A DNA stretch of 64,000 bases from an uncultured Clostridia bacterium (GCA_947629505.1 CANRDW010000002.1:150-64149); one strand, 5' to 3'; numbered from the stretch's first letter, positions 38,817-59,871 are shown. Notes: generated by a model from the sequence alone, not told the origin. Made by a program: numbers and translations.

Positions 38817-38873
38817 TGTATTTAGTTGCAATTTTTTAAATTTTATGATATTATATAGCCATGGAGGTTGACA

Positions 38874-39146: not shown

Positions 39147-39157
39147 GACATTTTAAG

Positions 39158-39186: not shown

Positions 39187-39212
39187 AGTTTAAGACCTAT
39201 GGAGGATTTTTT

Positions 39213-39476
39213 ATGAAAAGTTATATAAAACAGCGCACGCTTGAAGTTGCACAATACATTGCCACTTCACACGAAACAATCAGAAAAACTGCCAAAGTTT
39301 TTCACTTAAGCAAAAGCACAGTGCACAACGATTTGCAAAAAAGATTGAAGAAAATTGACAGCAAAATGTATGAAGAAGTGCAAAAAATTTTAGATCAACA
39401 CTTTGAAGAGAAGCATATCAAAGGCGGGCAATCAACAAAAAATAAATATAAAAATTTTGTTGCAAAAGAAAAATAA
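39213..39476 (+). CDS. spoIIID: Sporulation transcription regulator SpoIIID
   Basis: RBS GGAGG. MKSYIKQRTLEVAQYIATSHETIRKTAKVFHLSKSTVHNDLQKRL...HIKGGQSTKNKY is canonical SpoIIID. Confidence 0.92.
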   Translation: MKSYIKQRTLEVAQYIATSHETIRKTAKVFHLSKSTVHNDLQKRLKKIDSKMYEEVQKILDQHFEEKHIKGGQSTKNKYKNFVAKEK

Positions 39477-39501: not shown

Positions 39502-39531
39502 AAAAAAATGCGTTTTTTTCGCATTTTTTTA
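39502..39531 (+). terminator. Intrinsic terminator after spoIIID
   Basis: AAAAATGCG-T7-CGCATTTTT. Confidence 0.7.
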
Positions 39532-39758
39532 TTAATTTTTGCCTATTTTTTATTATTTTTTAATTTTTTGCTATATTCAGCATAACAGCGGAGGGAAAAT
39601 ATTTTTTTCAAATTATTTTTCTCTATTTTTTTGTGCATAAAAAATATTTTTAATTTTATTAAAAAATATTTCCACAAATTTGACTTTACACGCGCGAATA
39701 TTTATAATATATATATATAAAACTCGCATTATTGCAAACGCTATTGTGGAGGGGACAC

Positions 39759-42700
39759 ATGAAAAAAATTTTTTTAGCAATGTTTAGTGTGTTTATGCTG
39801 ATGTCAGGGATTTTTATCACTGCATGCTGTGAAAAGTCGGTGACACTTTCAATTGACACTGAAAATGTGACAATTTACACAAACAGTCAAAACCAAGACA
39901 ATGTTTTGTCAAAGGATGTGACTGTTTCTGTCAGCAACTCTTCTGCGGGGATTGGAAAGATTGTTGAGTCGGGCGGAGAAAACACAATTCACCTTTCCGC
40001 AACAAGACGCCACAATGACAATACATACTCTTTCACAATCTATGGCGACAAGAGTGGCTCTGCAAGAGTTCGCGTTTGGGCAATTGACAACATAAACGAA
40101 TACAAAGTCATAAATGTCAAAGTAAACACCGTGCTTGAAAAAATTGAAACTTCACAAAGTGACTCCACACAAGGTCGCACCAACAGATTTATTGTCAAAG
40201 GTGACGGCAACGAAATAAATTTAAATGCTGAAGAATTTTTTGATTTAAAACCTCTCACTGCAAATGTTAAAGATATTGAATGGACTTTCACAAATGGAGA
40301 ACTTGATGAAAATGGACAACCTGTTATGTATGAGGACAGTGTTGAGGTTGCAAGAATCTCCAACGGAAAACTTTGGGTTTCTGAAAATGCGCAAATGGAA
40401 AAAATAAATTTAAGGGCATCTTTTGTTGACAACAAAGACATCACCAACACAGTTGAACTTGATGTGCTTGAAAATTCCACAATCAATTCTCTTGAAATTG
40501 GCGACAACACCCACACTGTTTTGTTCTATTCCGACAACGCAGTTCAAGACATTAAAGACGATGACGCCGTTTTCAATCTTAAACGCAATGATGCAAATCG
40601 CGCTGTCGCAAGTGGAACAATTGTCATCAACACACAATACAATGTTCAGCTTTCTCCAATCTTCTATGCTTCCACATCAAATGGCATGGAAAGGATTGAG
40701 GATTATTTGGATTATTTCACTTTCAATGTCACATCTCGTGAAACACAGGCAAAAATGGTGACTTACACTTTTGAAGTGAATGCAACTGACTATTTCAACA
40801 ACAACACAAGCGGAAGCTTTATGTTGCAACTCAATATTGGCTATGCCGACTATGCATATGACATCACCACATCTTCGATTAGGCCGATTATCACCACTTC
40901 TTATGCCGTTGAGGGAGTGAATCTCTTTGACGCTCAACAAGACTTTATCAACAACGATTCAATTGACATCTTTTCAAACTACAACGCTGGGGGCTACACG
41001 ATTAGGACAATTCTTCTTCCAGATGATGGCGTTACGCTTGACAACAACTTATTCAACATCAAAATCAACATTGAGCAATCCACGTCACTTTTGAATCATT
41101 TTATGAAAAATGACCAAAAGATAAGTTCAATTGTAAAATTCACACGTCGTGGCGAAGAAATTAAATTTACAAACTCCAGCGAAATGGAATACACATCGAC
41201 AACGCTTCTTCAAAGTGGCGATGTTATCACATTGATTGCAAGTGACAATATTGAGGGCTCGCTTGAAAATGTTGTTTTTGAATTTGTGCCGCAAAGTGAC
41301 CCATACAAAAAAACTCAAATCGGTTTAAATCTATATCGCATCACCTCGGGGCAAGACCTTGAAATTGTCACAGACAACGATATGCCTGTTGAAACGCAAT
41401 ATATTGCTTCAAATGAAGGCAGCACAAAAGTTGTTGATTACACACTTAAAATCCTTGGACTCACTTCTGCATCAGGGCTTGTTTTGAAAAACGACAACAA
41501 TCCACGCTTTATCTTCCCAGAAGAGGACTATTTCACAAAAACTCCAGAGGCTGTTGAAACTCACATCTCTGATGGCGAAAATGATCCAGATTACATAATT
41601 GTGCAATTCAGCGTCAGACTCAATGGAACAAACATTGACAGCAAAGCAAACTTCTGGTTTGAACATATCACTCAAAAAACTTCTCAAAATTTTAGTGTTG
41701 AAGCCTTTATGCCAATTGACGATGTTTCAATTTTAAATGCCGACCCACTTTCCACAAATGTGTATTATTCAAAAAATTTAAGACAGGGATTTTCGCTTGT
41801 AGGTGACGAAATTCAATCTTCAGATTTAACAAGTGTTTCTCTTGCAAAAATCATGCTGGAAGCGGGCTCTATCTTGACACTTTCCACAACTTTCCAATCT
41901 TTGGCAAATGATGTTGAATATGGCTTTATCACGCTTGACCAAGTTATAGAAAAACTTGGTGAAAATGATGCAGAAAACATCTTTAGATATGCGGGTGAAG
42001 ACGATGCACTTTTTGGCGACCAAACCGCACTTGATTATTTGGCGACACAATTTTCGAAAGATGAAATTTGGACGGGATTTACCAATTATTTCGGCATCAC
42101 AACAAACAGATTGACCCTTTCAGACAACGAATTTAAGGGCTTTGTTTTTGCAAAGTTCAATGGATTTGATTCCGCCCACAGAGAAGTTGTTGCAGTCAGA
42201 ATTTTTGCACTAGAGAGTTTCTATGCTGTGAAATCTCTTTCAAGCAATGTCAGAGACACCATTCTTTACACAACTGAAACTTTAAGTCAGGCAGATATGG
42301 CTCGCGCTTCTGTGAATGTTACTCTCAGTTTCAGAAATGACGGCAAAACTCCAACTTACACACACGATCAAAGCATGTTTACTTTTGAATCCAGCAGTGG
42401 AGATTGGGAAGAAAATGACAGTCAAGCAATAAAACAAAATCGCTTTTACACGATAAGCAACATTGACACGCCATTAGATGGCAGATATTTCACATTCACA
42501 ATCACCGCAAATTCAACCAAACACCAAACAAGAGTGTATGACATTTTGACAATTACATATCGAGATGAATTTGGCTTTGAAAGAAAGATTGACATTTCTC
42601 TTGAAATAAGAAATGTAAACCGTGTCGAACAAGTTGAATGGGTGAATAAAACCCTTTCAGGTGATGTTTATCTCAATCTCACTTCTTCACAAGAAAATGC

Positions 42701-45700
42701 CCGCAAGTTTATGATTAAAACTGCCGTTTTGCCAAGTGGCCCAGACGGCGCAAATGACAAGACTTTAAGAGCCAGATATGCATCTTCTGGTGATGGCGTG
42801 AACCTTTCAGTCACGGAAGTTGAAACTATTGACGGCGGACAAAATTTCAACCTTTCAATCACAGGCACAGACAGAGGCGGAGTTGGAAACTTGTATATTT
42901 TGCCAAATGACATGATAAAGCGTGTTGACGGCATTGACCAAGTTTTGATTTACAAATATGAATATGACGAAAATGGACAGTTGAAAGAAGAGAAAATTTC
43001 ATATATTCGCCTTGATAGATTTGAAAATTATTATGACGAAATCATTGCAGGCAGTGACAATTATTCAAATTATTTCTACAACAACGACAATGAAAGAATT
43101 TATTACAGCGATGTAATTTTAAATATTCCAATCATCATGGCAGATGGGCAAGAGATTGAAACTGCCGTTCGCGTTTACAGTGAAGAAGATCTTAAAAAGA
43201 TTGACAAAGCGCTTAAATATCGCGTCATGAACAACATCACCTTAAGCGGCTGGCAGGCTTATGACCAAATCACAGAAAATGGTGCAATTTTTGGCGACAA
43301 CGACAGCATTGTTTTGAATTTCACAAACGACAGCCAAAACTTTGTGGACACCTTGCGCGGACAAATCTTTGACCTTGTGCTCACGGGAGATGTCACAGTC
43401 GCAAATGGCGCTTATGCCGGCTTTATCGCAAGGGAAAATTATGGGACAATCTCAAATGTTCGTGTGGATGTAAACTACAACTCTAAAGACAGCAAATATG
43501 TTCCAAGCAGTTTGACATATAATGCCATAGGGGACTATGCCGGTGGACTTGTCGGAAATAACATGGGGACAATCACAAATTCTTATACCTATGGAATGAG
43601 CATCGTTGCAACAAACTCCACTTTTGTTGGTGGGCTTGTTGGAAGCAACTCGGGGCGCTTGGCAAACTGCGGCGTGGAATTTTACACCTTTGCAGCAAAC
43701 ACCTACAACACAATTGCTGTCGGAAACAATTGTAACTTTGGTGGACTTGTTGGACAGGTCGCATCCGCAGACAGCGTGATTTACAGAGATTATATCTATG
43801 CATATCCTTTCACAGAATCTAATGGTGGCACATATTCACAACTTGTTTTAAACAACACAGACAATGTGTCTATGTTTGTCGGCGCAACAGGGGAAAATGT
43901 TTCCAACACAATTGAAGAATGTTTTGGCTTTATGGGCGATTTGAACAAAATCGTGTCGGGCACTGCAACCTTTGTGAATTCTTATTATGTTAAAAACAAA
44001 AATTCAGAAGGATCAAGCAAGGACAAAACAATGATTTTCCTCACTGATGGAGAAGATATTAACGGCACAGAATATAATTCAAACAACTTGGAGGGCACTT
44101 ACAAAGAAACATTAGATCGCGACATTTGGGAACTTGACAATATTGACAATAGTGTCAACTTTGACATGATTTATCTTAAAAATAATGTTCAAAGCGCCGT
44201 GCTTGATATAAACAAGGTTAATTTCAAATCACAAAGTGACAAAATTGTCAGTGTTGATGGCAACAATGCATTTTTGTTCTATTATCAGCCACAAGCCACA
44301 ATTTCAGACCCAGCTGAAAGGTCAGAACTTACAACTCTCAACACAGTTTCGTTGACAGACATTTTTGATATTAAAGCATCTGAGCAAAAGAGTTTGATTA
44401 TTTCTTCAGTTTCTCAAAGTTTGGTTGTCAATGCAACATCTCTTAGAATTACAAACATTGAAAACAGTGTTGTGAAAATCAAAGCACACTCCAAAATGGA
44501 TTTGACACAAACAAAAGAGTTTAATGTTGTCATCACTTATGCACTTCCAACACTTACAACTCTTCTTGGGGGCTATGAACTTAGCGACAACGAAGTTGTA
44601 AGATTGCAGACAAGCAAATCAGCCACAGATGAAAAGATTTCAACGATTGTTCATGAATTGGATCACACAATTATGCTCAATGGAAATGCATATGCTTCTG
44701 TTGCACAAAATTCTTTATATCAAATTGCTTATGTAATATATGATGTTGAGACAGGGAATAAGTTATATAAATGCGACAATATTGGCTTTGCAAAAAGTGA
44801 ACTTTCTTTGATTATGACAGGAAAGAAAGTGACACAGACCCCTGTTTCAGTGCAAACCTTTGTTGAACTTAAAAATATTGCAAAAGATATGGATGCCGAC
44901 ACAACTGAAAAATACAACAATGCCATTCGAGAAAAACTTACAAGAAAGTTTCAAGTTTCAGTTTTCAATGGGGCGACAAATCTTTTGATTACAAACGCCA
45001 AGAAACTCAATTTCAGCCCTGTTGACCATGCAACTTTTGATGTTGACATCACAACGGACAACGAAGATGACAATCTTGTGTTTACACTTGAAATAGGCGG
45101 ACACACTTTCCAAAGTGACCACCTGTCAGAAGCACGCAGTTTTGATTTTGTCATCGACAGCACAAACGATCTTCATTTGTCTGTCATTTGGACGCCAAAC
45201 ACAGAAAAAACAAAATATTCTGTTTCAGTTTTTGTGCCTTATGTGGAAAGATATAAGGTTGTCCAAGAATATGACTTCTCTTTGTCAGTCAACGCACTCA
45301 GCCAGATTGACAACGACATGTATGTAAACACTGTTGATTTAAAACTTGTGCCAGAATATGTAAATTCAATCAATATTGACATTTACAACATTCAAACAAG
45401 AAGAAGTGTAAACAACACAATGTATTACACACAATCTTCAAACAAAACAAACTCAATCATTCCGTCAAGCGATGCAATTTTGACTGTTCACATGACTCCA
45501 GAATTTGCACTTGCAACACATTTCACTTTGACATATACTGTTGAGAACAGTTCTCAGCCAAACGCAGCAGTTCAAATTATGAAACTCACCGAAAATCAAA
45601 ACTTTGGCTTGTATTTAAACAGTGCCGGCACATCTTCTTTGGGCAATGGACTTAGAGTGAACATAAGCGATGCTGATAGACAAGGAAAAGGTTATTATTA

Positions 45701-54700: not shown

Positions 54701-57700
54701 TTCTTACAACACAGGGCTTGTTGGCGCGGGGAATTACGGCGACACGGAAACATATGCGCTTGCCGGTGGAATTTTCGGCTATGGCGTTAATATAACGCTT
54801 GGCAAGGCTGACGGAAATGATGTTGGCTGCATCAATGACGGCGCCGTTCAAGCAATAAATCAAGTTAATGAAAATAATTATTCAATTAAATTCGAACTAA
54901 ATGAAAAAAATCAAGGAAAAGAAACTTATCTTGACACTGATGGTTTTGATCAAAGACCTTCTCCTTTAGTCTATAATGTGACTATGACATACAATGCTGG
55001 CAGTGACAGAAAAGTGTATGCCTTTGGTCTTGGCTACTCATATGGCGGAAGCATCAGTGATTCTCAATCTTCAATTGACAATATCAAAAATGATGGCAAT
55101 ATTGGACAATATATAGATGACACAAAAACCATGACTTTTGACCGCGAAACTTGGATGGACGACAATACTGAATATGAAGCAAAATTTGCAGTTCAAAATG
55201 GCAGCAATATTGGTGAAGATGGAAATGGGCAAAGTTATTCCATTGGTGATGTAGTTGGTGATGTAGGAGGCAAATTTTATGTTAATGGGCGTGATAACTA
55301 TGGATTCCCAGCCCGCATTTATCTCACCGATACTATGACAAGAAGATTGAATTATGAAGCAACTAAAAGATTTTATAACATGGTGAAAGTGCAAATGGAA
55401 TATACCCGTCAAAAGAAAAAACAGATTTTTGGTTTTACATTCACTAAATCTAGTATTTGGGATTATGATAGTGAATCGGGAAAGTGGGCGTGGACTGGCG
55501 CTAAATGGGGAGAAGTTAGAGAAGGCAGAGGTTTGGGTGATGTAAAAGATATATTTGATTATATTCGCGACAGCGGTTATAACTATTTTGGAGTAGCTTC
55601 TAAGGATGATAAGAACTACTACAGTTTTAATTCGGATACTACAATTGGTTATTACACAGATCAATTATATCGAAATTATAACAACGATGTACCAAAGACT
55701 ATGCAAGGTTATTTTGAAGGACAGAGCAAATACTATTATAGCCCACAAAACAACAATTTTGAATCTGATAAGAGTCTTGTTCTTGATGACAATGGAAACC
55801 CGGATCTTGATGAAAGGGGAAACCCGCAGGTTAAACTGAATTATGATGCAATTCACGAAAGTGAGATATATAATTTCCAATCTGACACAACCTTCTATGC
55901 AAGCACAGAATTCTCTGAATATAATGAGATTTTGAGAAAAATAGATTTGATAAGTAATGAAACAAATATTACTAATGAAGCAAACAAATATCCAATTAAA
56001 CAAGAATCAAGCGAAGACTCAGGCTCAATAGTAAATATTGAAGCAGAAATACAAAAGATTGATCAAAAACTGCAAAAAACTGAAGAACAAAGCGTAAAAG
56101 AGATGACTGTCAATGGCAAGAAAGTTGCAATCATTGAAAACAATTTCAATATGAAGGCTGTATATACTCCTTATTATGCAACTTTTGAACAAAAAGTAAA
56201 AATACCTGAAGATCCCGATACCGTACTTACTGCTCCTGCACTTACAAAGAATAACTTTGAAATTACAGTTGAAGGATGTGCAGATGGAGTTGGCCTTTCA
56301 TATTATGTAATACAAGATCCTATTAAGAACGAGGACGGAACTTACACAATAAAAGGAACATTATATTTCAATGATGATCCAGGAAATAACTGTAAATGCG
56401 TAATAAATGTCACTTATGACACTCCAATCACAAGCGTGCAATTGCGTAAAAACGATGTCCAATATTTGGACAATGAATTAAAGATAAATCTTGACCGTTA
56501 TATGGAAGATTTTGAAAATAGAGGTTTTGATAAACAAAATATCAGCGAAGTAGCACTTTTTGATGGTGAGCAATGTGTATATATAAAATCTATAGAAGAT
56601 AATGATAAACAACAGGGGAAAAGATTGAATCCTAATTGGGAAGGCAACAATACTCTTGTTATAGATGATTTTTCTGGATCCTTAGGAGATGCAACAGATT
56701 TGAGAATAAGTTTTATCGTAACAACAAGTATAGAGGTCTCCGTCTATAGATTGGATTTAAAGATCAACAATATATCTTCATCTGATGAAATAAAAGTGTC
56801 ATTGGTTGATTTACCACAGAAACCAACCGACCTTACTTTTATTGAAGAGGGTGAAGAATTGACAAAAGAGCAAATTAATGACTTAATCAAATTAACAGAA
56901 AATAGAGAGGGTGAAGCCCTTGTTGGGCTTTCATATGATTTGTCTAACCTTGTTTTGCAGGCAAATGGCAAATTAGCGTTTGGTGATGAAAATTATAATT
57001 TCAACTACACTACTAAAGATAGTTGGAAAAACACCTTACAACCTGAGGATGACAATTTGACCCTTAACTTTGAAGGCAACACATTGAAAGTGTCTGGAAG
57101 TGAAGAAGATTTAAATAAATTTAAGGAGACTTTCCAAGCATTCACGAGTTACAGAAGAACAGAGGGGCCTATCAAACCTAATGATTTTACAGGAAACAGC
57201 GATCCAAACAGTTCTAGCAGTGATCAAGGCGTTGATCTTGGAGATTTTGCTTCACTTAGAGAACATTTTAAACTGGCAGGAGATGAGGCATGGAATAGGG
57301 CTTCAATGGATTGGAATGATTTCGATAATCAACTGGCAAGCACTCAGGTTTCTAGAAAACCATATGCTAGTTACTTCGGCTTAGATTTCTACGAAGTAGA
57401 TGCCAAGTTCACTTATGAACTTACATCTTTGCAACTCACGTTTAATTCAAGTCAACTTTACAAAGGATTTACTCTTAAAGTTGGGGACAAATATGTTCGT
57501 CAAGGGACAACAAGCGACTATATAAGTGAACCTATCAATTTGTTTGACCATGTTGACCGTGCAAACTTGGGGAGCAATGAAGTTTCTTTGACAGTGAATG
57601 ATGTTGAGTTTGCTCAAACAGAATTTTCAATTGGATCATATCTTGCTTTGTCTGGGAATGGTTATCAATATAGTGTAACAAAAAACACAACGGAAACATG

Positions 57701-59786
57701 TCCTGTTTGTGGTAAAGATGAAAGTGTTATTACAACTTATTGTTATAAAACTGATGATAGCAATGAAAATGTGGAATATTCATATACATATAGACTTTTT
57801 GCCTGTGGAGATATCTGTGTTTATTATACTAGAAATGTTGAAGATGGAGACGATAATGTAGTTGAAAGTGGTTTAGAAAGTGTTTTGTTCACATACAATC
57901 ATGATAATGGAGAAATCAAAAGAATAGATGGTGAATGGATATGGTATGTTGAACCCTCTGAGAACGACAAAGGTGAAGGAGATTTTGAATATAACAAAGA
58001 AGGGGTATCGCAAGACAAAAGTTTTGATAAATATTTTAGTGGCTACACATTTGAAAATGGTGGATCTATTAGTGTTGATTTGGTTGTAAGTGATTTTGGG
58101 GACAAGACAGTTAATGTTGATGGGTCATTTGCGTATAACGGTTTCATTTCTGTGGCATATTCTTCAAAAAATGTAGAATATACGTTTTCTGGTTATGAGA
58201 AAGGATCAAAACCACAGGATGAGATTTTTAATGCTGACGTTGTTTATTATGGATACCAAGAAAAAGCCACTATAACTGTTGCTGAAGGCGAAACATTAAA
58301 TTGGAAAGATGCTGCAAGTGATGGCGAATTTGAAAAAGCAATCCCTGAAGATGGGAAATATGTATTTGAAGCAGATTCATATGACTTGAAACAAATTACA
58401 TATTATAAGCATGTTGAGATAAGCAGTACAGGATCAAATTATTTGGAAATTCAAGCAACAGTAAGCAACAACAATTCAACTAATGGCATTATGCTTTTGG
58501 GAGAAGACAAAAACATCACTTTTCCTATTGTTTTACTTAATTCAGATATCGTGCTTAGTGAAGGACTTGGGTCAAACAAACGCACAATTGTTGGGAATAA
58601 TTTTAATATCAAGTTTAATGGACTAAATGCTGAGTTGATTGAAACGAATGAAGAAGATATTAGGGATGTGAACTTTGTTGGACAGGCTTCACTTTCGGAG
58701 CAGACAAAAGAACGTAATCTGTTAATACAAAAAAACTACACAGCAGACATTACAAGTGTGAAACTTTATGGAAATATGAGAAATATTTATGCAGAAAATT
58801 CAAACACTGTAAGTTCATCTATTGAGTATAATGAAACAGCACTTGTTGCAACATATGTTGCAATGACAGGCTTGGATGCGGGACTAAACAAGGATGTGGC
58901 AGTAACGCTTGTAGAAAAGAGCAGTCAAGCTGGCGGCGGAATTGTTGTTGCAGGCAGTGCAATTAAGTCAGAAGATGGAGCCAATGGGAGTTCATATTCA
59001 TCTTCTAAAACTGGGGAAGGTCGCAACGGAGGAGAAGGAAATCCTGGAAAACAAGGCGGAAGCGTTGCTGTTTCCAACACAAAATTCGCGAGAGTTGGCG
59101 CCGGCAGTATGAGTGGCTATGGTGGCAATGGAGCAAATGGATCTTTTTACATAATTCAATATTCAACAGGCGGAGGCGGCGGTGGTATGACCCATAATGT
59201 AGGCAACTCCGGGGCTTCGGAGGGTGATAATATAAATAATGCTTCAAATCTTTCTACAGCCGCACAATATGGAGGCAATGGTGGTGTTGGTGGACTTGGA
59301 AGAGTATTTGTGGAAGAACGTTATCTTGGAGTAGGCAGAACATTGAAATCAGGGATGTGTTTTGCAGGTAAACCAGGTGCAGCTGGAGGGTTAGATACTC
59401 CAGGTAATGCAGGTGAAACCTTGGAAACTTGTTGGTTTGAATCAACAACAGAAGGATACCGAGTTTGTGATTTATTTAACATAGGAGAGTGTATAAGTCT
59501 CCCAGAAGGGGATAATCCAGATGGAATTAAGAACTATAAAGAAGCGCTCAATTATGCATTTGAGCGCCGAAATGAATGGTATGAGAAAACTTTAACTACA
59601 CCTAGCAAACATAATGACATGAAATTATATTGTTCATGTGAAGTTCACTTTGAAGTGAAACAGAATAACACAAGGCCTAAAATTACACCTACAACAGCTC
59701 AGACTTGGGGAAAAGTGAGTGTTTGGTGCTCGGGAGAATATATCAACAGTGGTGGAAGTTTTAATGATTGGTCAATAAAAAGTTAA
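39759..59786 (+). CDS. Giant surface lipoprotein (6,675 aa) with Ig-like domains and many GLUG-type beta-helix modules
   Basis: RBS GGAGG 6 nt before the ATG at 39759. Lipobox FITAC-C. A single uninterrupted 20,028-nt frame. More than 25 GG[LIVFM][IVF]G (GLUG-like) motifs by eye, e.g. YAGGLVGNNMGTITNSY and LAGGVVGYASGTTINSSYNTG. No C-terminal sortase or TM anchor. Confidence 0.9.
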   Translation: MKKIFLAMFSVFMLMSGIFITACCEKSVTLSIDTENVTIYTNSQNQDNVLSKDVTVSVSNSSAGIGKIVESGGENTIHLSATRRHNDNTYSFTIYGDKSGSARVRVWAIDNINEYKVINVKVNTVLEKIETSQSDSTQGRTNRFIVKGDGNEINLNAEEFFDLKPLTANVKDIEWTFTNGELDENGQPVMYEDSVEVARISNGKLWVSENAQMEKINLRASFVDNKDITNTVELDVLENSTINSLEIGDNTHTVLFYSDNAVQDIKDDDAVFNLKRNDANRAVASGTIVINTQYNVQLSPIFYASTSNGMERIEDYLDYFTFNVTSRETQAKMVTYTFEVNATDYFNNNTSGSFMLQLNIGYADYAYDITTSSIRPIITTSYAVEGVNLFDAQQDFINNDSIDIFSNYNAGGYTIRTILLPDDGVTLDNNLFNIKINIEQSTSLLNHFMKNDQKISSIVKFTRRGEEIKFTNSSEMEYTSTTLLQSGDVITLIASDNIEGSLENVVFEFVPQSDPYKKTQIGLNLYRITSGQDLEIVTDNDMPVETQYIASNEGSTKVVDYTLKILGLTSASGLVLKNDNNPRFIFPEEDYFTKTPEAVETHISDGENDPDYIIVQFSVRLNGTNIDSKANFWFEHITQKTSQNFSVEAFMPIDDVSILNADPLSTNVYYSKNLRQGFSLVGDEIQSSDLTSVSLAKIMLEAGSILTLSTTFQSLANDVEYGFITLDQVIEKLGENDAENIFRYAGEDDALFGDQTALDYLATQFSKDEIWTGFTNYFGITTNRLTLSDNEFKGFVFAKFNGFDSAHREVVAVRIFALESFYAVKSLSSNVRDTILYTTETLSQADMARASVNVTLSFRNDGKTPTYTHDQSMFTFESSSGDWEENDSQAIKQNRFYTISNIDTPLDGRYFTFTITANSTKHQTRVYDILTITYRDEFGFERKIDISLEIRNVNRVEQVEWVNKTLSGDVYLNLTSSQENARKFMIKTAVLPSGPDGANDKTLRARYASSGDGVNLSVTEVETIDGGQNFNLSITGTDRGGVGNLYILPNDMIKRVDGIDQVLIYKYEYDENGQLKEEKISYIRLDRFENYYDEIIAGSDNYSNYFYNNDNERIYYSDVILNIPIIMADGQEIETAVRVYSEEDLKKIDKALKYRVMNNITLSGWQAYDQITENGAIFGDNDSIVLNFTNDSQNFVDTLRGQIFDLVLTGDVTVANGAYAGFIARENYGTISNVRVDVNYNSKDSKYVPSSLTYNAIGDYAGGLVGNNMGTITNSYTYGMSIVATNSTFVGGLVGSNSGRLANCGVEFYTFAANTYNTIAVGNNCNFGGLVGQVASADSVIYRDYIYAYPFTESNGGTYSQLVLNNTDNVSMFVGATGENVSNTIEECFGFMGDLNKIVSGTATFVNSYYVKNKNSEGSSKDKTMIFLTDGEDINGTEYNSNNLEGTYKETLDRDIWELDNIDNSVNFDMIYLKNNVQSAVLDINKVNFKSQSDKIVSVDGNNAFLFYYQPQATISDPAERSELTTLNTVSLTDIFDIKASEQKSLIISSVSQSLVVNATSLRITNIENSVVKIKAHSKMDLTQTKEFNVVITYALPTLTTLLGGYELSDNEVVRLQTSKSATDEKISTIVHELDHTIMLNGNAYASVAQNSLYQIAYVIYDVETGNKLYKCDNIGFAKSELSLIMTGKKVTQTPVSVQTFVELKNIAKDMDADTTEKYNNAIREKLTRKFQVSVFNGATNLLITNAKKLNFSPVDHATFDVDITTDNEDDNLVFTLEIGGHTFQSDHLSEARSFDFVIDSTNDLHLSVIWTPNTEKTKYSVSVFVPYVERYKVVQEYDFSLSVNALSQIDNDMYVNTVDLKLVPEYVNSINIDIYNIQTRRSVNNTMYYTQSSNKTNSIIPSSDAILTVHMTPEFALATHFTLTYTVENSSQPNAAVQIMKLTENQNFGLYLNSAGTSSLGNGLRVNISDADRQGKGYYYFRVYASNIFKDNSTIVFTTTFYNGEDELYTASEKLGIDFMQDAQITIDGQAVSSYLIAKSTSTEIEVTVGKNQTVMLSLQNNGAGISLVLGDDREEGNFRIYKATVVARANAKVMGDNGQQQSTGVFYVRAGVSRVIDGVPDIKYTSVKMNLLDFTIDPQGISVRGSHNTTTYNQSTYDAFYVYRGAPNPLEFDYTLLPQTYDIDESNPEEVDAIKEIEAEKEKFLLNNYYEKEGSSYHINYTYDVTTNKYTELTLKEQLAYARNEYDTESIYNPVTDGINRNDLFTIERKNITKDGKQIEQLVFTGLNTGKQLMRLETLVWYDDQLIARIPYFFVVVVDTYYDEENPVAITSQEDLERFADPNRTDAKAEDYILMNDIVLENYTPLSTAMFNSLDGNGYVIHLNSFAKPSVEDGSFSLAMFSEVTANTTLKNICVNIYQGGQLKVNVSRNTGYSTVNVAGFALVNNGIIYNCEVVAYKSDYQTVTVANPGLNVVYTNGENDTEIQLNENMGIEESFVAGFVIENNLSIVNSRVGGENFEHIVNIAGVDYIETLDLDYFNIRGQVNVAGFIANNYGKISASYADNVAIYNMMDSNAAETAGFALYNTSSIEESYVEGAGGGRDGDEIVITHSLTKINVKGGFVAGFIYDNSGVVKNSYANIAIENTSYKPSYLAGFVYRNNPGALVTLCFTACEIQNIDAQQRPFSGVSGDDSLNEGTISYSYYYSRSSDSVTDESRYTTGITPVSDLTVDPENLLYGFSFTSGNGQSNGIWEKTDFGIVLVNPNKIAISNRYMVVVNDTEQFIYNTAVRDVSTLLPVDLSYGSEKNPIIIRSASDFVLAMGKAQSREISSYLQYYSSTEVWGNYRFVNDVVFDDTIEQNPQTIEQTEGRYNLTTTSKTFRGNLTGNGFTLSGLRLSSSQQAENYGLFAKLDSADIINLNLEVEYVNSDASVVGILAGTAIDSNIISVSVVPYGIQDEIRVNGENVVGGLVGMLFGESKVQDVSISNIYVESADYEVKNITSNKENIGRLRDLIKNRQSIANQTTRLSYTGAVIGFVDTYSIMNNSTVKFETSIRVKDFDVLNVHVTGFVNIYGEVAGGLFGYVGDSTKVYDASLKIDADAARSTNPSYIIAKNLYAGGLVGENYGGLFAVYAQYSDDIQNAIEAGENSYYMNGANVERGQDSIFSYTEADREFADIETKYDDPLAIGGLVGYMGAGYIYVGYSKLNVITRSDKTMAIGGIVGMLSSSGIVTKVESVQGTPNVNVVLNDVYASGDVHFDTSNNAGKNSAGIVGAITDASSSTMPTIVLRNVMAMNYLGVANNQLIGDTAGFTDAETSINSTNHFMLIGNLFKYSNGLLSNVDMLNTDIYIVRDDASYVNLNRYPDDGVSDGIHNTVGGYNNLSLGQGDQARHIQIKPFAFNFNVSGDPNTVVMRDLVVAVHIGESDMQSATPGDLSTPSIYFKSYFLERGWESQYWIHDGNKLFPEIELLPRSNVVTWDVYNTEEVIDKVSKNKEITIVLRGKLYNQENSNDYTDIDIRKGATQGNVPMADLYDDLQEAFRNFKGTLISYYQMEHRDDCALNKEANEFGGKPDPEKRVDPGLIVDAPLITATEPLTGLNINGINFYFCKSDNQETINYALLGNAPVSNNSVLRNVSLIYNDPVAIEASENGNVGLVTTSTITSTSVINTTIVVREKANSTGPNITLGSGDSYAKFVGLIAGKIIMDSQNDSASVSGLSITKETANNTTGSSEDDDAKKVKVEIKTNPTADSTAEQNLDVFVGLFAGQIYKTQGASKTLNLGFNQLNDLKVTITAAGETKGFEGNLYVGGFVGQLSDADRIVFEGASSGETNGFTMVIDSSVSKNLYAGGVFGQVASGSDVHISVDGNSNLVYTNNLYLNSEKTISGEANIGGIIGETGINVFISNLKTRFGLGTSTKKSVDRSAFETFKYDDYLPKNDNNDVNLLNPFVVKNANIGGMIGKVSGGITQILRTSTVDGSIDVAINGEGTVNVGGYIGDAYGDVIVNAPNAKNSLNISVYQKDNNQDMANIGGIVGRFNQGSGSPLNNITINDGASDGQWTNYTGIVLAAVKTINFGGAVGFMNKQDFSTASTFNNVAFGGALEVWDNGTIAGGTVQVGGVIGAYDQQTNSEPDETPSTGHDTITNARTYGDVFVNYKMYDNGTYLNNKLATYYFGGIVGYAVNVSVENCSTIMTSFNSRLSTGNTAGSNIGVYGVNAIVGADNGQVTYKNNKYSSGVMMTYQVEENNKDCYYGDQDDSSYEYYGYTNKTTESVSTDNNDKILKDFQSFVSGCQKLNPVKLSAITIKVEDNEGDDLQTKGDFIKTYTSTSSSNSTELNSYHNISWLYVGGDLSLSSLGSNITDIVIVGNGHTVTVTDNGAYTDELFKGALVDTMGAFASTNDVDEGENGFEAKIPNFTAITGMKLNLKVEKADVNITEGNTNNPSYGGVTGVTNGNSFIYGVGVTGQLSVGGANVEGYSLRLGGIVGTMKFGMIDECYMDATVSYRGNVGGFLSGIANTDQYNTTIKNTYSSGLLETFADVNIYTLAYSEQDSSAATSNDIMDVYSISQIKVTNLLENNTSSSTEIYFVNTDAFSQFGQHLNGTAAVTTNYTAIGQMALAYSEANKTAQSYSIKTPKYDGNGSKLEVDDGDKTPTPWYFSPYVNYGYASHGFGYLKNVTTYTETDGVYSQVSYDVLTTTNYQDGWYLGVPNVGKFEQMVDTVKEEYESNYKFLLKYNIDMSKKADSLTFGQNIGAKDKGFVFDGDGHTLDFAMAGTLNAPLFGDVTGEIKNLRLADISTSGNDGVATLAKTMNGSLNNITAIGSVTSGASVVGGVVATLNSSADKIQSLVNITKTGGGIVGGIAGVLNNATISNSSNSGQIVSTGSGTTGLTFKTMDTETKTTTVEGEETVVKREGTANSQKNGEDKSLGNIAGGVVGYANGGTVKNSYNANAVLSGFTDSTTGNYLAGGVVGYASGTTINSSYNTGLVGAGNYGDTETYALAGGIFGYGVNITLGKADGNDVGCINDGAVQAINQVNENNYSIKFELNEKNQGKETYLDTDGFDQRPSPLVYNVTMTYNAGSDRKVYAFGLGYSYGGSISDSQSSIDNIKNDGNIGQYIDDTKTMTFDRETWMDDNTEYEAKFAVQNGSNIGEDGNGQSYSIGDVVGDVGGKFYVNGRDNYGFPARIYLTDTMTRRLNYEATKRFYNMVKVQMEYTRQKKKQIFGFTFTKSSIWDYDSESGKWAWTGAKWGEVREGRGLGDVKDIFDYIRDSGYNYFGVASKDDKNYYSFNSDTTIGYYTDQLYRNYNNDVPKTMQGYFEGQSKYYYSPQNNNFESDKSLVLDDNGNPDLDERGNPQVKLNYDAIHESEIYNFQSDTTFYASTEFSEYNEILRKIDLISNETNITNEANKYPIKQESSEDSGSIVNIEAEIQKIDQKLQKTEEQSVKEMTVNGKKVAIIENNFNMKAVYTPYYATFEQKVKIPEDPDTVLTAPALTKNNFEITVEGCADGVGLSYYVIQDPIKNEDGTYTIKGTLYFNDDPGNNCKCVINVTYDTPITSVQLRKNDVQYLDNELKINLDRYMEDFENRGFDKQNISEVALFDGEQCVYIKSIEDNDKQQGKRLNPNWEGNNTLVIDDFSGSLGDATDLRISFIVTTSIEVSVYRLDLKINNISSSDEIKVSLVDLPQKPTDLTFIEEGEELTKEQINDLIKLTENREGEALVGLSYDLSNLVLQANGKLAFGDENYNFNYTTKDSWKNTLQPEDDNLTLNFEGNTLKVSGSEEDLNKFKETFQAFTSYRRTEGPIKPNDFTGNSDPNSSSSDQGVDLGDFASLREHFKLAGDEAWNRASMDWNDFDNQLASTQVSRKPYASYFGLDFYEVDAKFTYELTSLQLTFNSSQLYKGFTLKVGDKYVRQGTTSDYISEPINLFDHVDRANLGSNEVSLTVNDVEFAQTEFSIGSYLALSGNGYQYSVTKNTTETCPVCGKDESVITTYCYKTDDSNENVEYSYTYRLFACGDICVYYTRNVEDGDDNVVESGLESVLFTYNHDNGEIKRIDGEWIWYVEPSENDKGEGDFEYNKEGVSQDKSFDKYFSGYTFENGGSISVDLVVSDFGDKTVNVDGSFAYNGFISVAYSSKNVEYTFSGYEKGSKPQDEIFNADVVYYGYQEKATITVAEGETLNWKDAASDGEFEKAIPEDGKYVFEADSYDLKQITYYKHVEISSTGSNYLEIQATVSNNNSTNGIMLLGEDKNITFPIVLLNSDIVLSEGLGSNKRTIVGNNFNIKFNGLNAELIETNEEDIRDVNFVGQASLSEQTKERNLLIQKNYTADITSVKLYGNMRNIYAENSNTVSSSIEYNETALVATYVAMTGLDAGLNKDVAVTLVEKSSQAGGGIVVAGSAIKSEDGANGSSYSSSKTGEGRNGGEGNPGKQGGSVAVSNTKFARVGAGSMSGYGGNGANGSFYIIQYSTGGGGGGMTHNVGNSGASEGDNINNASNLSTAAQYGGNGGVGGLGRVFVEERYLGVGRTLKSGMCFAGKPGAAGGLDTPGNAGETLETCWFESTTEGYRVCDLFNIGECISLPEGDNPDGIKNYKEALNYAFERRNEWYEKTLTTPSKHNDMKLYCSCEVHFEVKQNNTRPKITPTTAQTWGKVSVWCSGEYINSGGSFNDWSIKS
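39840..43150 (+). other. N-terminal ~1,100-aa region of tandem Ig-like (Big_2-like) beta-sandwich domains in the giant protein
   Basis: Repeated ~90-100-aa segments with a V-x-V-x...A-x-V pattern (e.g. VTLSIDTENVTIYT...GSARVRVWAI). Domain family judged by eye. Confidence 0.4.
43160..54800 (+). other. Region of at least four adhesin-type modules: [E/S-x-D-L ... N-D-I-x-L ... G-N-G-x-x-I] heads followed by GLUG repeats
   Basis: Module heads start near 43160 (VRVYSEEDLKKI), 46740 (VAITSQEDLERF...LMNDIVLENY...LDGNGYVIHL), 48180 (IIIRSASDFVLA...GNLTGNGFTLSGL) and 53940 (LLKYNIDMS...FDGDGHTLDF). GLUG motifs are dense at 43540-43760, 49110-49580, 51170-52300 and 54240-54790. Confidence 0.6.
58930..59420 (+). 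other. Glycine-rich C-terminal segment of the giant protein
   Basis: GRNGGEGNPGKQGGS, GYGGNGANG, STGGGGGGM, YGGNGGVGGLG, GKPGAAGGLDTPGNAGE. Confidence 0.7.
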
Positions 59787-59871
59787 AACACTGCAACAAC
59801 AAATTAAATCTTTGCTTTATTAAGCAAAAATGGTGGAGATTATTTATAATTTTGTAAAAAAGGAGAAAGTT

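What the first reader, a model, noticed from the sequence alone, without database searches (positions are those of the whole stretch)
39759..59786. Single 20-kb gene for a 6,675-aa lipoprotein of Ig-like plus GLUG beta-helix modules
One uninterrupted frame occupies 31% of the window. It starts with a good RBS and a lipoprotein signal (MKKIFLAMFSVFMLMSGIFITAC). About 1,100 aa of Ig-like repeats follow. Next come at least four or five modules, each opening with an x-x-(E/S)-(E/D)-(D/F)-L...(N/M)-(N/D)-(I/V)-x-L...G-N-G-(F/Y/H)-x-(I/L) head and followed by runs of GG(L/I/V)(V/I)G GLUG motifs (more than 25 by eye). I found no sortase signal, SLH or C-terminal TM, so the N-terminal lipid would be the only anchor for a ~700-kDa fibre. 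The ~280-nt upstream region is extremely AT-rich with multiple T-runs. Proteins of this size are rare and are usually adhesins or host/partner-interaction fibres. The modules are divergent rather than recent tandem copies, which argues against assembly artefacts.
Basis: partly seen in the sequence, partly recalled or inferred. Interest (0 to 1): 0.7.

Follow-up and report, generated by a model that had tools for sequence, protein, structure and literature searches.

The report
Conserved giant surface lipoprotein of gut Clostridia
A real 20-kb gene encodes a 733-kDa membrane-tethered surface fibre that is conserved, unnamed and unstudied across an uncultured gut lineage with tiny genomes, where it is the best candidate for how these dependent cells hold on to a partner or host.

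Summary
ATG 39759 to stop 59786 is one uninterrupted 6,675-aa frame with an RBS, a canonical lipobox (Cys23), no other hydrophobic segment and no LPXTG.

It is not an assembly artefact. The same single ORF (5,403-6,783 aa, median 6,539) lies at the same locus (SpoIIQ-like M23, ACP, SpoIIID, giant, RadC) in dozens of independently assembled gut MAGs. These include Ca. Caccovivens and Onthoplasma of family UBA1242 (Christensenellales), whose genomes are about 0.7-1.6 Mb. In MAG KY236-132 the gene is 2.6% of the genome.

The lipobox and a near-consensus sigma-A promoter are conserved, and dN/dS is below 1 along the whole gene.

Profile comparison finds seven mutually homologous GLUG-type modules. 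An AlphaFold model of two of them matches the beta-helix domain of Gram-positive IgA1 proteases. Pfam and NCBIfam name nothing above threshold. The "Ig-like" N-terminus could not be verified.

The C-terminal ~1,500 aa are the fastest-evolving part and look mosaic.

Best reading: an N-terminally lipid-anchored, segmented beta-helix fibre with a variable distal tip, used for contact with a partner cell or host surface. It is a new variant of a known kind.

The parts
39502..39530 (+). Intrinsic-terminator-like hairpin that ends the upstream spoIIID gene. It separates the giant gene into its own transcription unit.
39680..39708 (+). Sigma-A-type promoter, TTGACT-17 nt-TATAAT (11 of 12 consensus positions), about 50 nt upstream of the ATG.
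   Evidence: The same TTGAC(T/A)-17/18-TATAAT (at least 11 of 12) is found upstream in 28 of the 32 orthologous loci scanned, and at about -48 to -51 in the closest ones.
39732..39744 (+). Leader motif TTGCAAACGCTAT. The orthologue consensus is TTGCAAATATTA(A/T). It lies between the -10 box and the RBS. Its function is unknown.
   Evidence: Alignment of upstream regions.
39748..39754 (+). Ribosome-binding site GGAGGGG, 4 nt before the ATG.
   Evidence: GGAGG is conserved in the orthologues.
39759..59786 (+). Giant ORF: 6,675 aa plus stop, 733 kDa, pI 4.5.
39759..39827 (+). Lipoprotein signal peptide (aa 1-22) and the lipidated Cys23 (lipobox F-I-T-A-C).
   Evidence: The MKK...LLSAC lipobox is conserved across orthologues, and Cys23 is at least 90% conserved.
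39828..42980 (+). Membrane-proximal non-GLUG region (aa 24-1074). It is probably beta-rich and the fold is unverified. Segments aa 24-300 and 304-513 are weakly homologous to aa ~1500-1700 and ~2100-2250.
42981..44108 (+). GLUG-type beta-helix module 1 (aa ~1075-1450; boundaries +/- ~70 aa).
   Evidence: Window-HMM cross-hits; 4 GLUG-like motifs.
44109..46625 (+). Non-GLUG spacer region (aa 1451-2289).
46626..48008 (+). GLUG-type beta-helix module 2 (aa ~2290-2750), with the variant motif AGF(V/A/I). Modules 2 and 3 together form the most conserved part of the protein.
   Evidence: In the AF2 model most of residues 50-430 have 10-residue block pLDDT means of 70-95, with triplets of short strands. 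Foldseek results.
48216..49748 (+). GLUG-type beta-helix module 3 (aa ~2820-3330).
50316..52628 (+). GLUG-type beta-helix module 4 (aa ~3520-4290).
52836..53678 (+). GLUG-type beta-helix module 5 (aa ~4360-4640).
53886..55148 (+). GLUG-type beta-helix module 6 (aa ~4710-5130).
55149..58295 (+). Fast-evolving distal region (aa 5131-6179). It matches no known family. Alignment occupancy among orthologues is about 0.3-0.7, and identity to the closest species is 20-44%.
58296..58958 (+). Seventh, terminal module (aa ~6180-6400). Its head, ...IVGNNFNIKF..., is homologous to the heads of modules 1 and 6.
58926..59414 (+). Glycine-rich segment (aa 6390-6552, 28% Gly) with the motifs GYGGNGxNG and GNGGxGGxGR, which recur in the majority consensus of the orthologue alignment.
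59415..59783 (+). Cys-containing C-terminal end (aa 6553-6675). The last ~30 aa carry a W...K..W.SGE..NS.G motif seen in at least half of the orthologues.
   Evidence: a 93-aa fragment, P0013, matches aa 6585-6669.
38259..39476 (+). Conserved upstream neighbours: an M23 peptidase with an N-terminal TM segment (SpoIIQ-like, 38259-38816), an acyl carrier protein (38868-39119) and SpoIIID (39165-39476).
   Evidence: Pfam. Synteny in 46-47 loci.
59830..60627 (+). Conserved downstream neighbour RadC/JAB. No terminator-like site lies in the 43-nt gap; the next one is at 60666-60688.
   Evidence: Synteny in 28 loci.

Best explanation
The gene encodes a giant cell-surface fibre of a genome-reduced, uncultured gut Clostridia lineage. 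The lineage is most likely family UBA1242 (Christensenellales) or a close relative.

Shown:
- The gene has its own conserved, near-consensus sigma-A promoter and an RBS.
- The product has a conserved type-II (lipoprotein) signal.
- It has no other membrane or wall anchor.
- It contains seven mutually homologous GLUG-type modules. The two that were modelled fold as right-handed beta-helices of the IgA1-protease N-domain type.
- The whole frame is under purifying selection.
- Constraint is strongest in modules 2-3 and weakest in the C-terminal ~1,500 aa, where synonymous divergence also jumps. That is a mosaic, recombination-like pattern.

Inferred:
- The protein is exported by Sec and diacylglyceryl-modified at Cys23, so its N-terminus is tethered to the outer face of the cytoplasmic membrane.
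- The N-terminal ~1,050 aa act as a wall-spanning stalk.
- The beta-helix modules, separated by beta-rich spacers, make a segmented semi-rigid rod. About 3,040 aa are in beta-helix. At roughly 25-30 aa and 0.48 nm per rung that is about 50-60 nm for the helices alone, so the whole rod is on the order of 100 nm.
- The fast-evolving distal third, ending in a beta-helix module and a glycine-rich, Cys-containing end, is the contact surface. It would bind a partner bacterium or a host or mucus surface.
- The host lineage is reported to lack biosynthetic pathways and standard transporters. In such a lineage this fibre is the prime candidate for the attachment device that a partner-dependent lifestyle needs.
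For: A real, conserved gene:
- 154 tblastn-confirmed relatives were found in GTDB species-representative genomes.
- In nearly every locus with enough flank the match lies in one ORF of about 6,000-6,900 aa.
- 35 complete orthologues measure 5,403-6,783 aa, median 6,539.
- Synteny M23-ACP-SpoIIID-giant-RadC is conserved.
- dN/dS is 0.04-0.56 in all 400-codon windows of six orthologue pairs.

Export and anchoring:
- The lipobox is conserved and Cys23 is at least 90% conserved.
- There is no other hydrophobic segment and no LPXTG.

Expression signal:
- TTGAC(T/A)-17/18-TATAAT is conserved at a fixed distance upstream.

Fold:
- In the AF2 model of aa 2280-3479 most of the two modules have 10-residue block pLDDT means of 70-95.
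- Foldseek finds 3n6z at E 4.5e-4 and 6xja/6xjb/7uvk at prob 0.99-1.0. Pectate lyases, tailspikes and the adhesins SRRP 5nxk and PfbA 4mr0 follow.
- Pfam Glug matches 7 of 36 orthologous cores and Peptidase_M26_N matches 2 of 36.
- Seven modules cross-hit each other at the profile level.

No enzyme signature:
- The single HExxH is not conserved.
- Invariant residues in modules 2-3 are almost all G, N or hydrophobic.

Variable tip:
- Identity to the closest species is 58-80% over aa 1-3200 but 20-44% over aa 5200-6675, while the neighbouring genes are 86-95% identical.
- The C-terminal 1,200 aa finds only one strong hit among 1.84 billion representative proteins.

Lineage context:
- L081 is MAG KY236-132 (Onthoplasma, UBA1242; 791,354 bp). 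Its giant ORF is 6,783 aa, or 2.6% of the genome.
- UBA1242 is described as lacking amino-acid, nucleotide and lipid biosynthesis, complete glycolysis, ATP synthase and standard transporters, and as probably partner-dependent (PMC12306168).
- Ca. Caccovivens is GTDB genus UBA11517, family UBA1242, with a 1.1-Mb type genome (PMC8035907).
Against: - No binding domain, ligand or partner is identified.
- There is no transcript or peptide evidence.
- The partner-dependent lifestyle of UBA1242 is itself only a genomic prediction.
- Assignment of this window to UBA1242 rests on orthology and synteny with labelled MAGs, not on a phylogenomic placement.
- The best-conserved part is the middle (modules 2-3), not the tip, so the key function could lie there.
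- No window shows dN/dS above 1, so relaxed constraint explains the variable C-terminus as well as diversifying selection does.
- The folds of about 54% of the protein (N-terminus, spacers, distal region) are unknown.
- A single lipid anchor for 733 kDa is unusual and may need unseen wall interactions.
Confidence: 0.55

Rival explanations
1. Envelope coat or spacer. The protein would be a structural, S-layer-like or glycocalyx-like surface layer. It would protect the cell or set a fixed distance around it, rather than act as a specific adhesin.
For: - Length and module order are strongly conserved (5,403-6,783 aa).
- A near-consensus housekeeping promoter is conserved, which suggests constitutive and probably high expression.
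- The pI is acidic (4.5).
- The whole length is under purifying selection.
Against: - No SLH, CWB2 or other self-assembly or wall-binding domain was found.
- A rod tethered at one end, with the fastest-evolving part at the free end, fits an interaction surface better than a lattice.
- The closest structural relatives are a substrate-gating domain of IgA1 proteases, enzymes and adhesins, not S-layer proteins.
Confidence: 0.2
2. Surface-displayed degradative enzyme array. One or more beta-helix modules would be polysaccharide lyases, glycosidases or proteases that attack host glycans or a partner's cell wall.
For: - Foldseek lists pectate, alginate and fucoidan lyases, GH28/GH55 enzymes and phage tailspike depolymerases among the beta-helix matches.
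- Giant proteins of predatory Omnitrophota have been linked to cell-wall degradation (bioRxiv 10.1101/2023.11.21.568195).
Against: - Those matches have low probability (0.04-0.7), against 0.99-1.0 for the non-catalytic IgA1-protease beta-helix.
- No enzyme family appears in Pfam or NCBIfam for any segment or orthologue.
- The only HExxH is not conserved.
- Invariant residues are G, N and hydrophobic, typical of a structural beta-helix.
Confidence: 0.08
3. Contact-dependent toxin delivery (CdiA, Rhs or LXG-like). A conserved stalk would present a polymorphic C-terminal toxin.
For: - The stalk is conserved and the C-terminus is highly divergent.
- Synonymous divergence jumps in a way that suggests recombination.
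Against: - The variable part is about 1,500 aa, not a short terminal cassette.
- The extreme C-terminal motif and the glycine-rich motifs are shared by most orthologues.
- The downstream gene is the conserved radC, not a variable immunity gene.
- No toxin, Rhs, LXG or pre-toxin domain was detected.
Confidence: 0.05
4. Sporulation-linked surface structure, such as a spore appendage or exosporium fibre, suggested by the position next to spoIIQ-like and spoIIID genes.
For: - The adjacency to the SpoIIQ-like M23 peptidase and SpoIIID is conserved in 46-47 loci.
- The lineage retains sporulation genes, with Spo0A in this window (PMC12306168).
Against: - The conserved promoter matches the sigma-A consensus rather than the sigma-E, -K, -F or -G consensus as I recall them.
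- A terminator separates the gene from spoIIID.
- A lipoprotein signal points to export across the cell membrane.
Confidence: 0.05
5. Assembly or annotation artefact: a chimeric or collapsed contig, or a pseudogene.
For: - The window comes from a source I cannot inspect.
- A few orthologous loci are split into 2-3 ORFs (L043, L058, L063, L002).
Against: - Dozens of independent assemblies from different hosts give the same uninterrupted ORF, the same length and the same neighbours.
- There are no internal DNA repeats that could collapse.
- dN/dS is below 1 along the whole gene.
Confidence: 0.01

Closest known systems
GLUG / beta-helix N-terminal domain of Gram-positive M26 IgA1 metalloproteases (S. 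pneumoniae IgA1P 6XJA/6XJB, G. haemolysans 7UVK) and the 'putative IgA1 protease' BACOVA_03286 (3N6Z)
   Same: - The fold is the same compact right-handed beta-helix. These are the best Foldseek hits, with prob 0.99-1.0.
- The same sequence signature is present: GLUG motifs and an N-terminal cap of the form 'x-S-x-E-D/E-L ... Y-x-L-x-N-D-I ... G-N-G'.
- Pfam Glug and Peptidase_M26_N are hit by some orthologues.
- Both are surface proteins of Firmicutes.
   Different: - There is no M26 catalytic middle or C-terminal domain and no conserved HExxH.
- There are seven beta-helix modules in series instead of one.
- The anchor is a lipid rather than LPXTG.
- In IgA1P the beta-helix gates the active site (PMC7695701). 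Here there is no active site to gate.
Beta-solenoid surface adhesins of Firmicutes: serine-rich repeat proteins (L. reuteri SRRP 5NXK), PfbA (4MR0), and the Giant1-4 proteins of Apilactobacillus kunkeei (3,000-8,000 aa; five consecutive giant genes, Giant1-5, make up 6% of a 1.5-Mb genome)
   Same: - Very large, elongated extracellular proteins with right-handed beta-solenoid domains.
- They take a large share of a small genome.
- They diversify by intragenic recombination (PMC12863079; compare).
   Different: - There is no detectable sequence relationship.
- Those proteins carry one beta-solenoid binding region at the distal N-terminus. SRRPs and PfbA are wall-anchored at the C-terminus (from memory).
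- Here the polarity is reversed: an N-terminal lipid anchor and a distal C-terminus. There are also seven helices and no serine-rich or short tandem repeats.
Giant surface proteins of genome-reduced episymbionts and predators: SPEARE proteins of Nanohaloarchaeota (up to 8,553 aa; 4% of the genome) and the giant proteins of Omnitrophota
   Same: - A multi-thousand-residue, mostly extracellular protein anchored at one end.
- It takes up several percent of a roughly 1-Mb genome in a lineage predicted or shown to depend on a partner.
- The extracellular part is more variable (PMC6642349; bioRxiv 10.1101/2023.11.21.568195).
   Different: - The domains and phyla are unrelated.
- SPEARE proteins have a transmembrane anchor plus a cytoplasmic restriction-enzyme-like domain, and protease and toxin-like domains.
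- Omnitrophota giants have many TM segments and SecA-like domains.
- None of these is present here. The resemblance is functional analogy only.
Polymorphic toxin / contact-dependent inhibition stalks (CdiA / FHA-type beta-helix)
   Same: A long beta-helical stalk with a divergent C-terminal end.
   Different: - There is no two-partner secretion signal, FHA repeats, pre-toxin motif or downstream immunity gene.
- The extreme C-terminus is shared among orthologues.

Membership tests
Bacterial lipoproteins (type-II signal peptide, Lgt/LspA pathway) | An N-terminal signal with a basic n-region and a hydrophobic core, ending in a lipobox [LVI][ASTVI][GAS]C with the Cys at about position 15-35. | tested here: met
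   MKKIFLAMFSVFMLMSGIFITAC, with Cys23. The same architecture is seen in essentially all orthologues, and Cys23 is at least 90% conserved.
Bacterial lipoproteins (type-II signal peptide, Lgt/LspA pathway) | Actual diacylglyceryl modification and signal peptidase II cleavage, and presence of lgt and lspA in the genome. | not testable with these tools
   Only a 64-kb window is available and no lgt or lspA is in it. A second predicted lipoprotein (33971-35824...VVTGC) suggests the pathway is in use.
Pfam PF07581 Glug (GLUG motif) | A score at or above the Pfam gathering threshold (20.5 bits). | tested here: not met
   The window protein scores 17.1, 16.9 and 13.6 bits in three 700-aa pieces, and nothing at E<=0.01 on the two halves. 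Among orthologous cores, 7 of 36 match at E<=0.1, the best at 3.3e-6. The family as a whole is related, but this member is sub-threshold.
GLUG-type right-handed beta-helix (IgA1-protease N-domain fold) | A compact right-handed parallel beta-helix built of GLUG-containing rungs. | tested here: met
   In the AF2 model (9-sequence MSA) most of the two modules have 10-residue block pLDDT means of 70-95. Foldseek finds 3n6z at E 4.5e-4 and 6xja, 6xjb and 7uvk at prob 0.99-1.0. This was tested on modules 2-3 only. The other five modules are linked to these by profile cross-hits.
M26 IgA1-specific metalloendopeptidases (ZmpA/B/C, IgA1P) | A catalytic HExxH...E zinc site within the M26 middle and C-terminal domains. 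| tested here: not met
   There is no Peptidase_M26_C hit. The only HExxH (aa 1632) is not conserved in orthologues.
Bacterial Ig-like domain arrays (Big_1/Big_2/Big_3, invasin/intimin-like) | Recognisable Ig-like beta-sandwich domains, by HMM or by fold. | tested here: inconclusive
   There is no hit in the window protein. Among 36 orthologous N-termini only 2 match Big_2 (best 0.006), 2 match Ig_NUP210 and 1 matches Big_1. The PDB profile search is empty. The single-sequence AF2 model has mean pLDDT 33.
Sortase-anchored surface proteins (LPXTG) | A C-terminal LPXTG motif followed by a hydrophobic stretch and a basic tail. | tested here: not met
   The only LPXTG-like string is LPRSN at aa 3471. 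The C-terminus is hydrophilic.
S-layer / wall-bound proteins (SLH, CWB2) | SLH or CWB2 wall-binding repeats. | tested here: not met
   No such Pfam hit in the window protein, or in orthologues for the three regions scanned (aa 24-1130, 2291-3480 and 5561-6675).
Polymorphic toxins / CDI | A variable C-terminal toxin cassette after a conserved pre-toxin motif, with a cognate immunity gene immediately downstream. | tested here: not met
   The downstream gene is the conserved radC in 28 loci. The terminal motif is shared among orthologues. No toxin domain was found.
The orthologous family itself (UBA1242-type giant GLUG lipoprotein; unnamed) | - A lipobox N-terminus.
- About 5,400-6,800 aa in a single ORF.
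- A collinear series of GLUG-type modules (seven in the window protein).
- The locus spoIIQ-like/ACP/spoIIID-giant-radC.
- A conserved sigma-A promoter. | tested here: met
   The window protein is 61% identical to the closest orthologue (L003) and 21-41% identical to the others.

The most novel reading that the evidence does not exclude
The giant lipoprotein is the host-attachment organelle of a Patescibacteria-like, obligately partner-dependent lifestyle that arose inside spore-forming Clostridia (family UBA1242). Its conserved stalk would hold the tiny cell at a fixed distance from a partner cell or host surface. Its recombining, fast-evolving distal third would set partner specificity. If so, the protein could serve as bait to identify, and then co-culture, the still-unknown partners of this widespread gut lineage.
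Probability: 0.3. Interest if true: 0.85.

Novelty: new variant of a known kind. Interest (0 to 1): 0.62.

Why it matters
UBA1242 and its relatives are widespread in animal and human guts and have never been cultured. Their reported genomes are 0.67-1.6 Mb and are predicted to be unable to make amino acids, nucleotides or lipids. How they obtain these compounds, and from whom, is unknown (PMC12306168, PMC13155120).

A gene that takes 2-3% of such a genome must matter to the cell. In lineages with a tandem second copy the share is larger. The gene is kept intact at one locus in many species, carries a conserved strong promoter, and encodes the only obviously long-reach surface structure found here.

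The family is unnamed in Pfam and NCBIfam. The sources that name its fragments call them 'hypothetical protein'. It is usually broken up in short-read MAGs. The paper describing the lineage does not mention it.

Recognising the family provides four things:
- a marker for the clade;
- a test of assembly quality for its MAGs;
- a concrete molecular handle (antibody, recombinant tip, FISH plus cryo-ET) on the lineage's proposed symbiotic or parasitic lifestyle;
- an example of a 733-kDa protein whose only detected anchor is one N-terminal lipid.

Tried and rejected
1. Pfam and NCBIfam on halves and on 700-aa pieces gave nothing above threshold.
2. phmmer of both halves against PDB sequences, and profile searches with the N-terminal, core and C-terminal orthologue alignments, gave nothing significant.
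3. Self-BLAST and TRF found no recent internal repeats, so repeat collapse or expansion is excluded.
4. The search for homologous proteins:
   - The whole protein was too long.
   - 5,000 aa timed out.
   - The N-terminal 1,130 aa, alone and as a 36-sequence alignment, found nothing. This is probably a limit of the word prefilter, because tblastn and genome scans do find N-terminal homologues.
5. A genome-contig scan with the single sequence found nothing. The 9-sequence alignment was too divergent to seed a scan. A 5-sequence alignment worked.
6. A metagenome-contig scan with the C-terminal 1,475 aa found no close relative.
The single-sequence run on the N-terminus is unusable, with pLDDT 33. 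I did not search folds with it.
8. The HExxH at aa 1632 was rejected as a protease site because it is not conserved.
9. A sporulation-specific role inferred from synteny was rejected as the leading idea, because the conserved promoter is sigma-A-like and a terminator precedes it.
10. Positive selection on the tip is not demonstrated. dN/dS is at most 0.56 at 400-codon resolution.
11. An exact look-up found the protein in the public collection as a singleton: unnamed, from NCBI, on a 65,092-bp contig. No positional record could be fetched.


Full report
**1. The observation**

The + strand carries one open frame from 39732 to 39786+20,000, that is 39732..59786. Read from the ATG at 39759 it gives 6,675 codons and a stop, with no internal stop. 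This is 20,028 nt, or 31% of the window.

GGAGGGG lies at 39748-39754, 4 nt before the ATG. The product starts MKKIFLAMFSVFMLMSGIFITAC. It has two lysines, a hydrophobic core and I-T-A-C23, which fits the lipobox rule as I recall it.

A 19-residue Kyte-Doolittle scan finds no other membrane-like segment. The signal scores 2.27 and the next peak 1.65. There is no LPXTG, the mass is 733 kDa and the pI is 4.5.

Strict GG[LIVF][VILAF]G motifs number 19 against 0.3 expected. Relaxed motifs number 31 against 4.4 expected.

The 282-nt upstream spacer is 79% A+T. It holds the terminator of the preceding gene and a TTGACT-17-TATAAT site.

So the description is accurate. Only the module count (seven, not four or five) and the label 'Ig-like' need revision.

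**2. It is not an artefact, and it is a family**

There are no recent internal repeats at the protein or DNA level.

A word-indexed search with aa 2280-3479 found ten partial 'hypothetical proteins' from Clostridia MAGs. One of them sits on a contig with the same gene order as the window and is collinear with aa 1-4040 of the giant.

A pattern scan of GTDB species-representative genomes with a 5-sequence alignment found 154 tblastn-confirmed relatives. All of the 79 loci kept (the best 80 matches) come from metagenome-derived genomes of uncultured bacteria, nearly all labelled Clostridia. The hosts include rabbit, deer, sheep, buffalo, mouse and human.

In nearly every locus with enough flank the match lies in a single ORF of about 6,000-6,900 aa. 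The 35 complete orthologues with a recognisable start measure 5,403-6,783 aa, median 6,539. Three or four loci are split into two or three ORFs (L002, L043, L058, L063), as expected from occasional sequencing errors or decay.

The upstream genes are found in 46-47 loci: an M23 peptidase with an N-terminal TM segment (SpoIIQ-like), an acyl carrier protein and SpoIIID. The downstream RadC is found in 28 loci.

Sliding-window dN/dS between six pairs of orthologues is 0.04-0.56 everywhere. The whole 20 kb is therefore maintained as coding sequence.

The exact protein exists in the public collection as an unnamed singleton from NCBI on a 65-kb contig.

**3. Who carries it**

Some loci are labelled Ca. 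Caccovivens (L007, L010) or Ca. Onthoplasma (L077). L081 is contig JBKSNA010000014.1 of MAG KY236-132.

Ca. Caccovivens is GTDB genus UBA11517, family UBA1242, order Christensenellales. Its type genome is 1.1 Mb with 34% GC (PMC8035907).

KY236-132 is an Onthoplasma (UBA1242) MAG of 791,354 bp with 782 genes (PMC12306168). Its giant ORF is 6,783 aa, or 2.6% of that genome.

That paper makes the following statements about UBA1242:
- Genome sizes in the analysed set, which spans UBA1242 and two other lineages, ranged from 0.67 to 1.6 Mb, and most UBA1242 members are below 1 Mb.
- It lacks amino-acid, nucleotide and lipid biosynthesis, complete glycolysis, ATP synthase and standard transporters.
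- It has retained sporulation genes.
- It is probably an obligate symbiont or parasite.
- The giant protein is not mentioned.

The window fits this picture. Its GC is 36%, and it carries Spo0A, a SpoIIQ-like gene and SpoIIID. Its closest relative is a rabbit-gut MAG (L003), with neighbouring genes 86-95% identical. Placement of the window in UBA1242 is an inference from orthology, not a phylogenomic result.

In the more distant lineages (L053, L055, L056, L060, L064, L069) a second large gene follows at once, starting with its own lipoprotein-type signal. In five of the six (not L060) it is detectably paralogous to the giant.

**4. Anatomy**

HMMs were built from 140-aa windows of the orthologue alignment and searched against all orthologues. 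They show seven mutually homologous regions, at aa ~1075-1450, 2290-2750, 2820-3330, 3520-4290, 4360-4640, 4710-5130 and 6180-6400. All 31 GLUG-like motifs fall inside these regions.

Each region opens with a cap such as ITSQEDLERF...YILMNDIVLENYTP...SLDGNGYVIHL. Rungs carrying GG(L/I/V)(V/I)G follow; in module 2 the rung motif is AGF(V/A/I).

An AlphaFold2 model of aa 2280-3479 (9-sequence MSA) has mean pLDDT 62. Within the two modules most 10-residue blocks average 70-95, and the strands form triplets of 3-4 residues.

Foldseek against the PDB ranks a putative IgA1 protease of Bacteroides ovatus first (3n6z, E 4.5e-4, prob 1.0). The S. pneumoniae and G. haemolysans IgA1 proteases follow (prob 0.99-1.0). 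Pectate, alginate and fucoidan lyases, tailspikes, SRRP and PfbA come next. In IgA1P the matching part is the compact N-terminal beta-helix (PMC7695701).

At the sequence level the window protein stays below the Pfam Glug threshold. Seven of 36 orthologous cores match Glug and two match Peptidase_M26_N.

The non-GLUG parts, about 54% of the protein, match nothing:
- The N-terminal alignment gives only sporadic sub-threshold beta-sandwich hits: Big_2 in 2 of 36, Ig_NUP210 in 2 of 36, and Big_1, Fn3-like and MG4 in one each.
- PDB profile searches are empty.
- The only AF2 run that was permitted, a single-sequence one, failed with pLDDT 33.

Segments aa 24-300 and 304-513 are weakly homologous to aa ~1500-1700 and ~2100-2250. 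The spacers therefore reuse some of the N-terminal domain types.

The C-terminus has a 163-aa segment with 28% Gly. It carries GYGGNGxNG and GNGGxGGxGR motifs, which recur in the majority consensus of the orthologue alignment. A Cys-containing end follows.

**5. Evolutionary pattern**

The giant evolves much faster than its neighbours. Against L003 it is 61% identical, while the neighbours are 86-95% identical. Against L004-L006 it is about 39-41% identical, against roughly 57-75% for the neighbours.

Conservation peaks in modules 2-3 (aa 2300-3300), where dN/dS is 0.04-0.13. It collapses after aa ~5200. Identity to L003 is 58-80% over aa 1-3200 but 20-44% over aa 5200-6675, and dN/dS reaches 0.56.

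An exhaustive HMMER search with the last 1,200 aa against 1.84 billion representative proteins found one strong hit. That hit is the L003 orthologue.

Synonymous divergence is uneven along the gene. It rises five-fold at the C-terminus of L023/L046 and dips at aa 3600-4400 of L009/L010. This points to intragenic recombination.

No window reaches dN/dS above 1. Diversifying selection is therefore plausible but not shown.

**6. Expression signals**

A TTGAC(T/A)-17/18-TATAAT promoter matching at least 11 of 12 consensus positions is found upstream in 28 of 32 orthologous loci, and about 48-51 nt before the ATG in the closest ones. A conserved leader motif, TTGCAAATATTA(A/T), and a GGAGG RBS follow.

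A terminator-like hairpin separates the gene from spoIIID. No terminator-like site precedes radC.

This argues for autonomous, housekeeping-type transcription rather than sporulation-specific control. That conclusion is an inference from consensus sequences.

**7. Mechanism**

Established lipoprotein biogenesis implies Sec export, lipidation of Cys23 and tethering of the N-terminus to the outer leaflet of the membrane.

The C-terminus is therefore the free, distal end. It is also the most variable end.

Seven beta-helix modules, about 3,040 aa, would alone span about 50-60 nm at 0.48 nm per rung and roughly 25-30 aa per rung. With the spacers, the fibre is plausibly on the order of 100 nm. This is an inference.

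No conserved catalytic motif exists.

The best-supported reading is a segmented surface fibre whose distal third contacts a partner cell or host surface. In a lineage with no biosynthesis and no standard transporters, this is the obvious candidate for the attachment device.

The rivals are set out separately: an S-layer-like coat, an enzyme array, toxin delivery, a spore appendage and an artefact. The coat model is the only serious competitor.

**8. Comparison with the known, and novelty**

The modules belong structurally with the GLUG/IgA1-protease beta-helix. The protein is not an M26 protease, not an LPXTG adhesin, not an S-layer protein and not a polymorphic toxin, because the defining features of each were tested and not met.

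Functionally it resembles two groups:
- the beta-solenoid adhesins and the Giant proteins of Apilactobacillus kunkeei (PMC12863079);
- by analogy only, the SPEARE proteins of Nanohaloarchaeota (PMC6642349) and the Omnitrophota giants.

Four things are new:
- the family itself, which is unnamed and undetected by curated libraries;
- its fixed-length, non-repetitive seven-module architecture on an N-terminal lipid anchor;
- its conservation at one locus in many species;
- its association with a genome-reduced Clostridia lineage.

I rate it a new variant of a known kind, with interest 0.62.

Noticed in passing
window 61857-64000 (+), runs off the 3' end: A second surface-protein gene 2 kb downstream of the giant. 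It is an ORF of at least 714 aa that ends, at the window edge, in a Listeria-Bacteroides repeat (Pfam Flg_new, E 4.4e-7).
   Followed up: partly
window 3606-23608: A probable integrated element. A tyrosine integrase (3750-4907, - strand) lies directly beside tRNA-Val (3606-3681). The region also holds a DUF3800 protein, a DnaC/IstB-like ATPase (19452-20294), a SocA/Panacea antitoxin-like gene (22301-22900) and many ORFs with no Pfam match. It ends near tRNA-Pro (23534-23608). This is notable if the genome is as small as those of its relatives.
   Followed up: partly
window 38868-39119 (+); same position in 46 related loci: An acyl carrier protein gene is conserved between the SpoIIQ-like M23 peptidase and spoIIID. 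The lineage (UBA1242) is reported to lack lipid biosynthesis, so what this ACP serves is unclear.
   Followed up: no
window 39732-39744; aligned position in most orthologous loci: A conserved 5'-leader motif, TTGCAAATATTA(A/T) (window: TTGCAAACGCTAT), lies between the -10 box and the RBS of the giant gene. A conserved ACAC spacer lies between GGAGG and the ATG in the closer species. This could be an operator or an RNA element.
   Followed up: no
window 1063-1863, 38259-38816, 39165-39476: Spo0A, a SpoIIQ-like M23 peptidase with an N-terminal TM segment, and SpoIIID are all present. This agrees with the reported unexpected retention of sporulation genes in this reduced-genome family.
   Followed up: partly
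L053, L055, L056, L060, L064, L069 (second ORF directly after the giant); L001: In the more distant lineages a second large gene follows the first directly, starting with its own lipoprotein-type signal. In five of the six (not L060) profile hits show N-terminal domains and/or GLUG modules homologous to the giant. The two genes would then take at least 4-5% of a genome under 1 Mb. L001 carries four large related genes on one 42-kb contig.
   Followed up: partly
L009/L010 aa ~3600-4400; L023/L046 aa >5200: Synonymous divergence is far from uniform along the gene. It dips to 0.06 in one pair and rises from 0.24 to 1.34 in another. This suggests recombination tracts inside the giant gene between related species.
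   Followed up: partly
window 33971-35824 (+) and 28214-29368 (-): Two further envelope proteins have no Pfam match. One is a 617-aa predicted lipoprotein (MKKKILALLLMCLMCVSVVTGC...). The other is a 384-aa protein with an N-terminal signal and a C-terminal TM segment.
   Followed up: no
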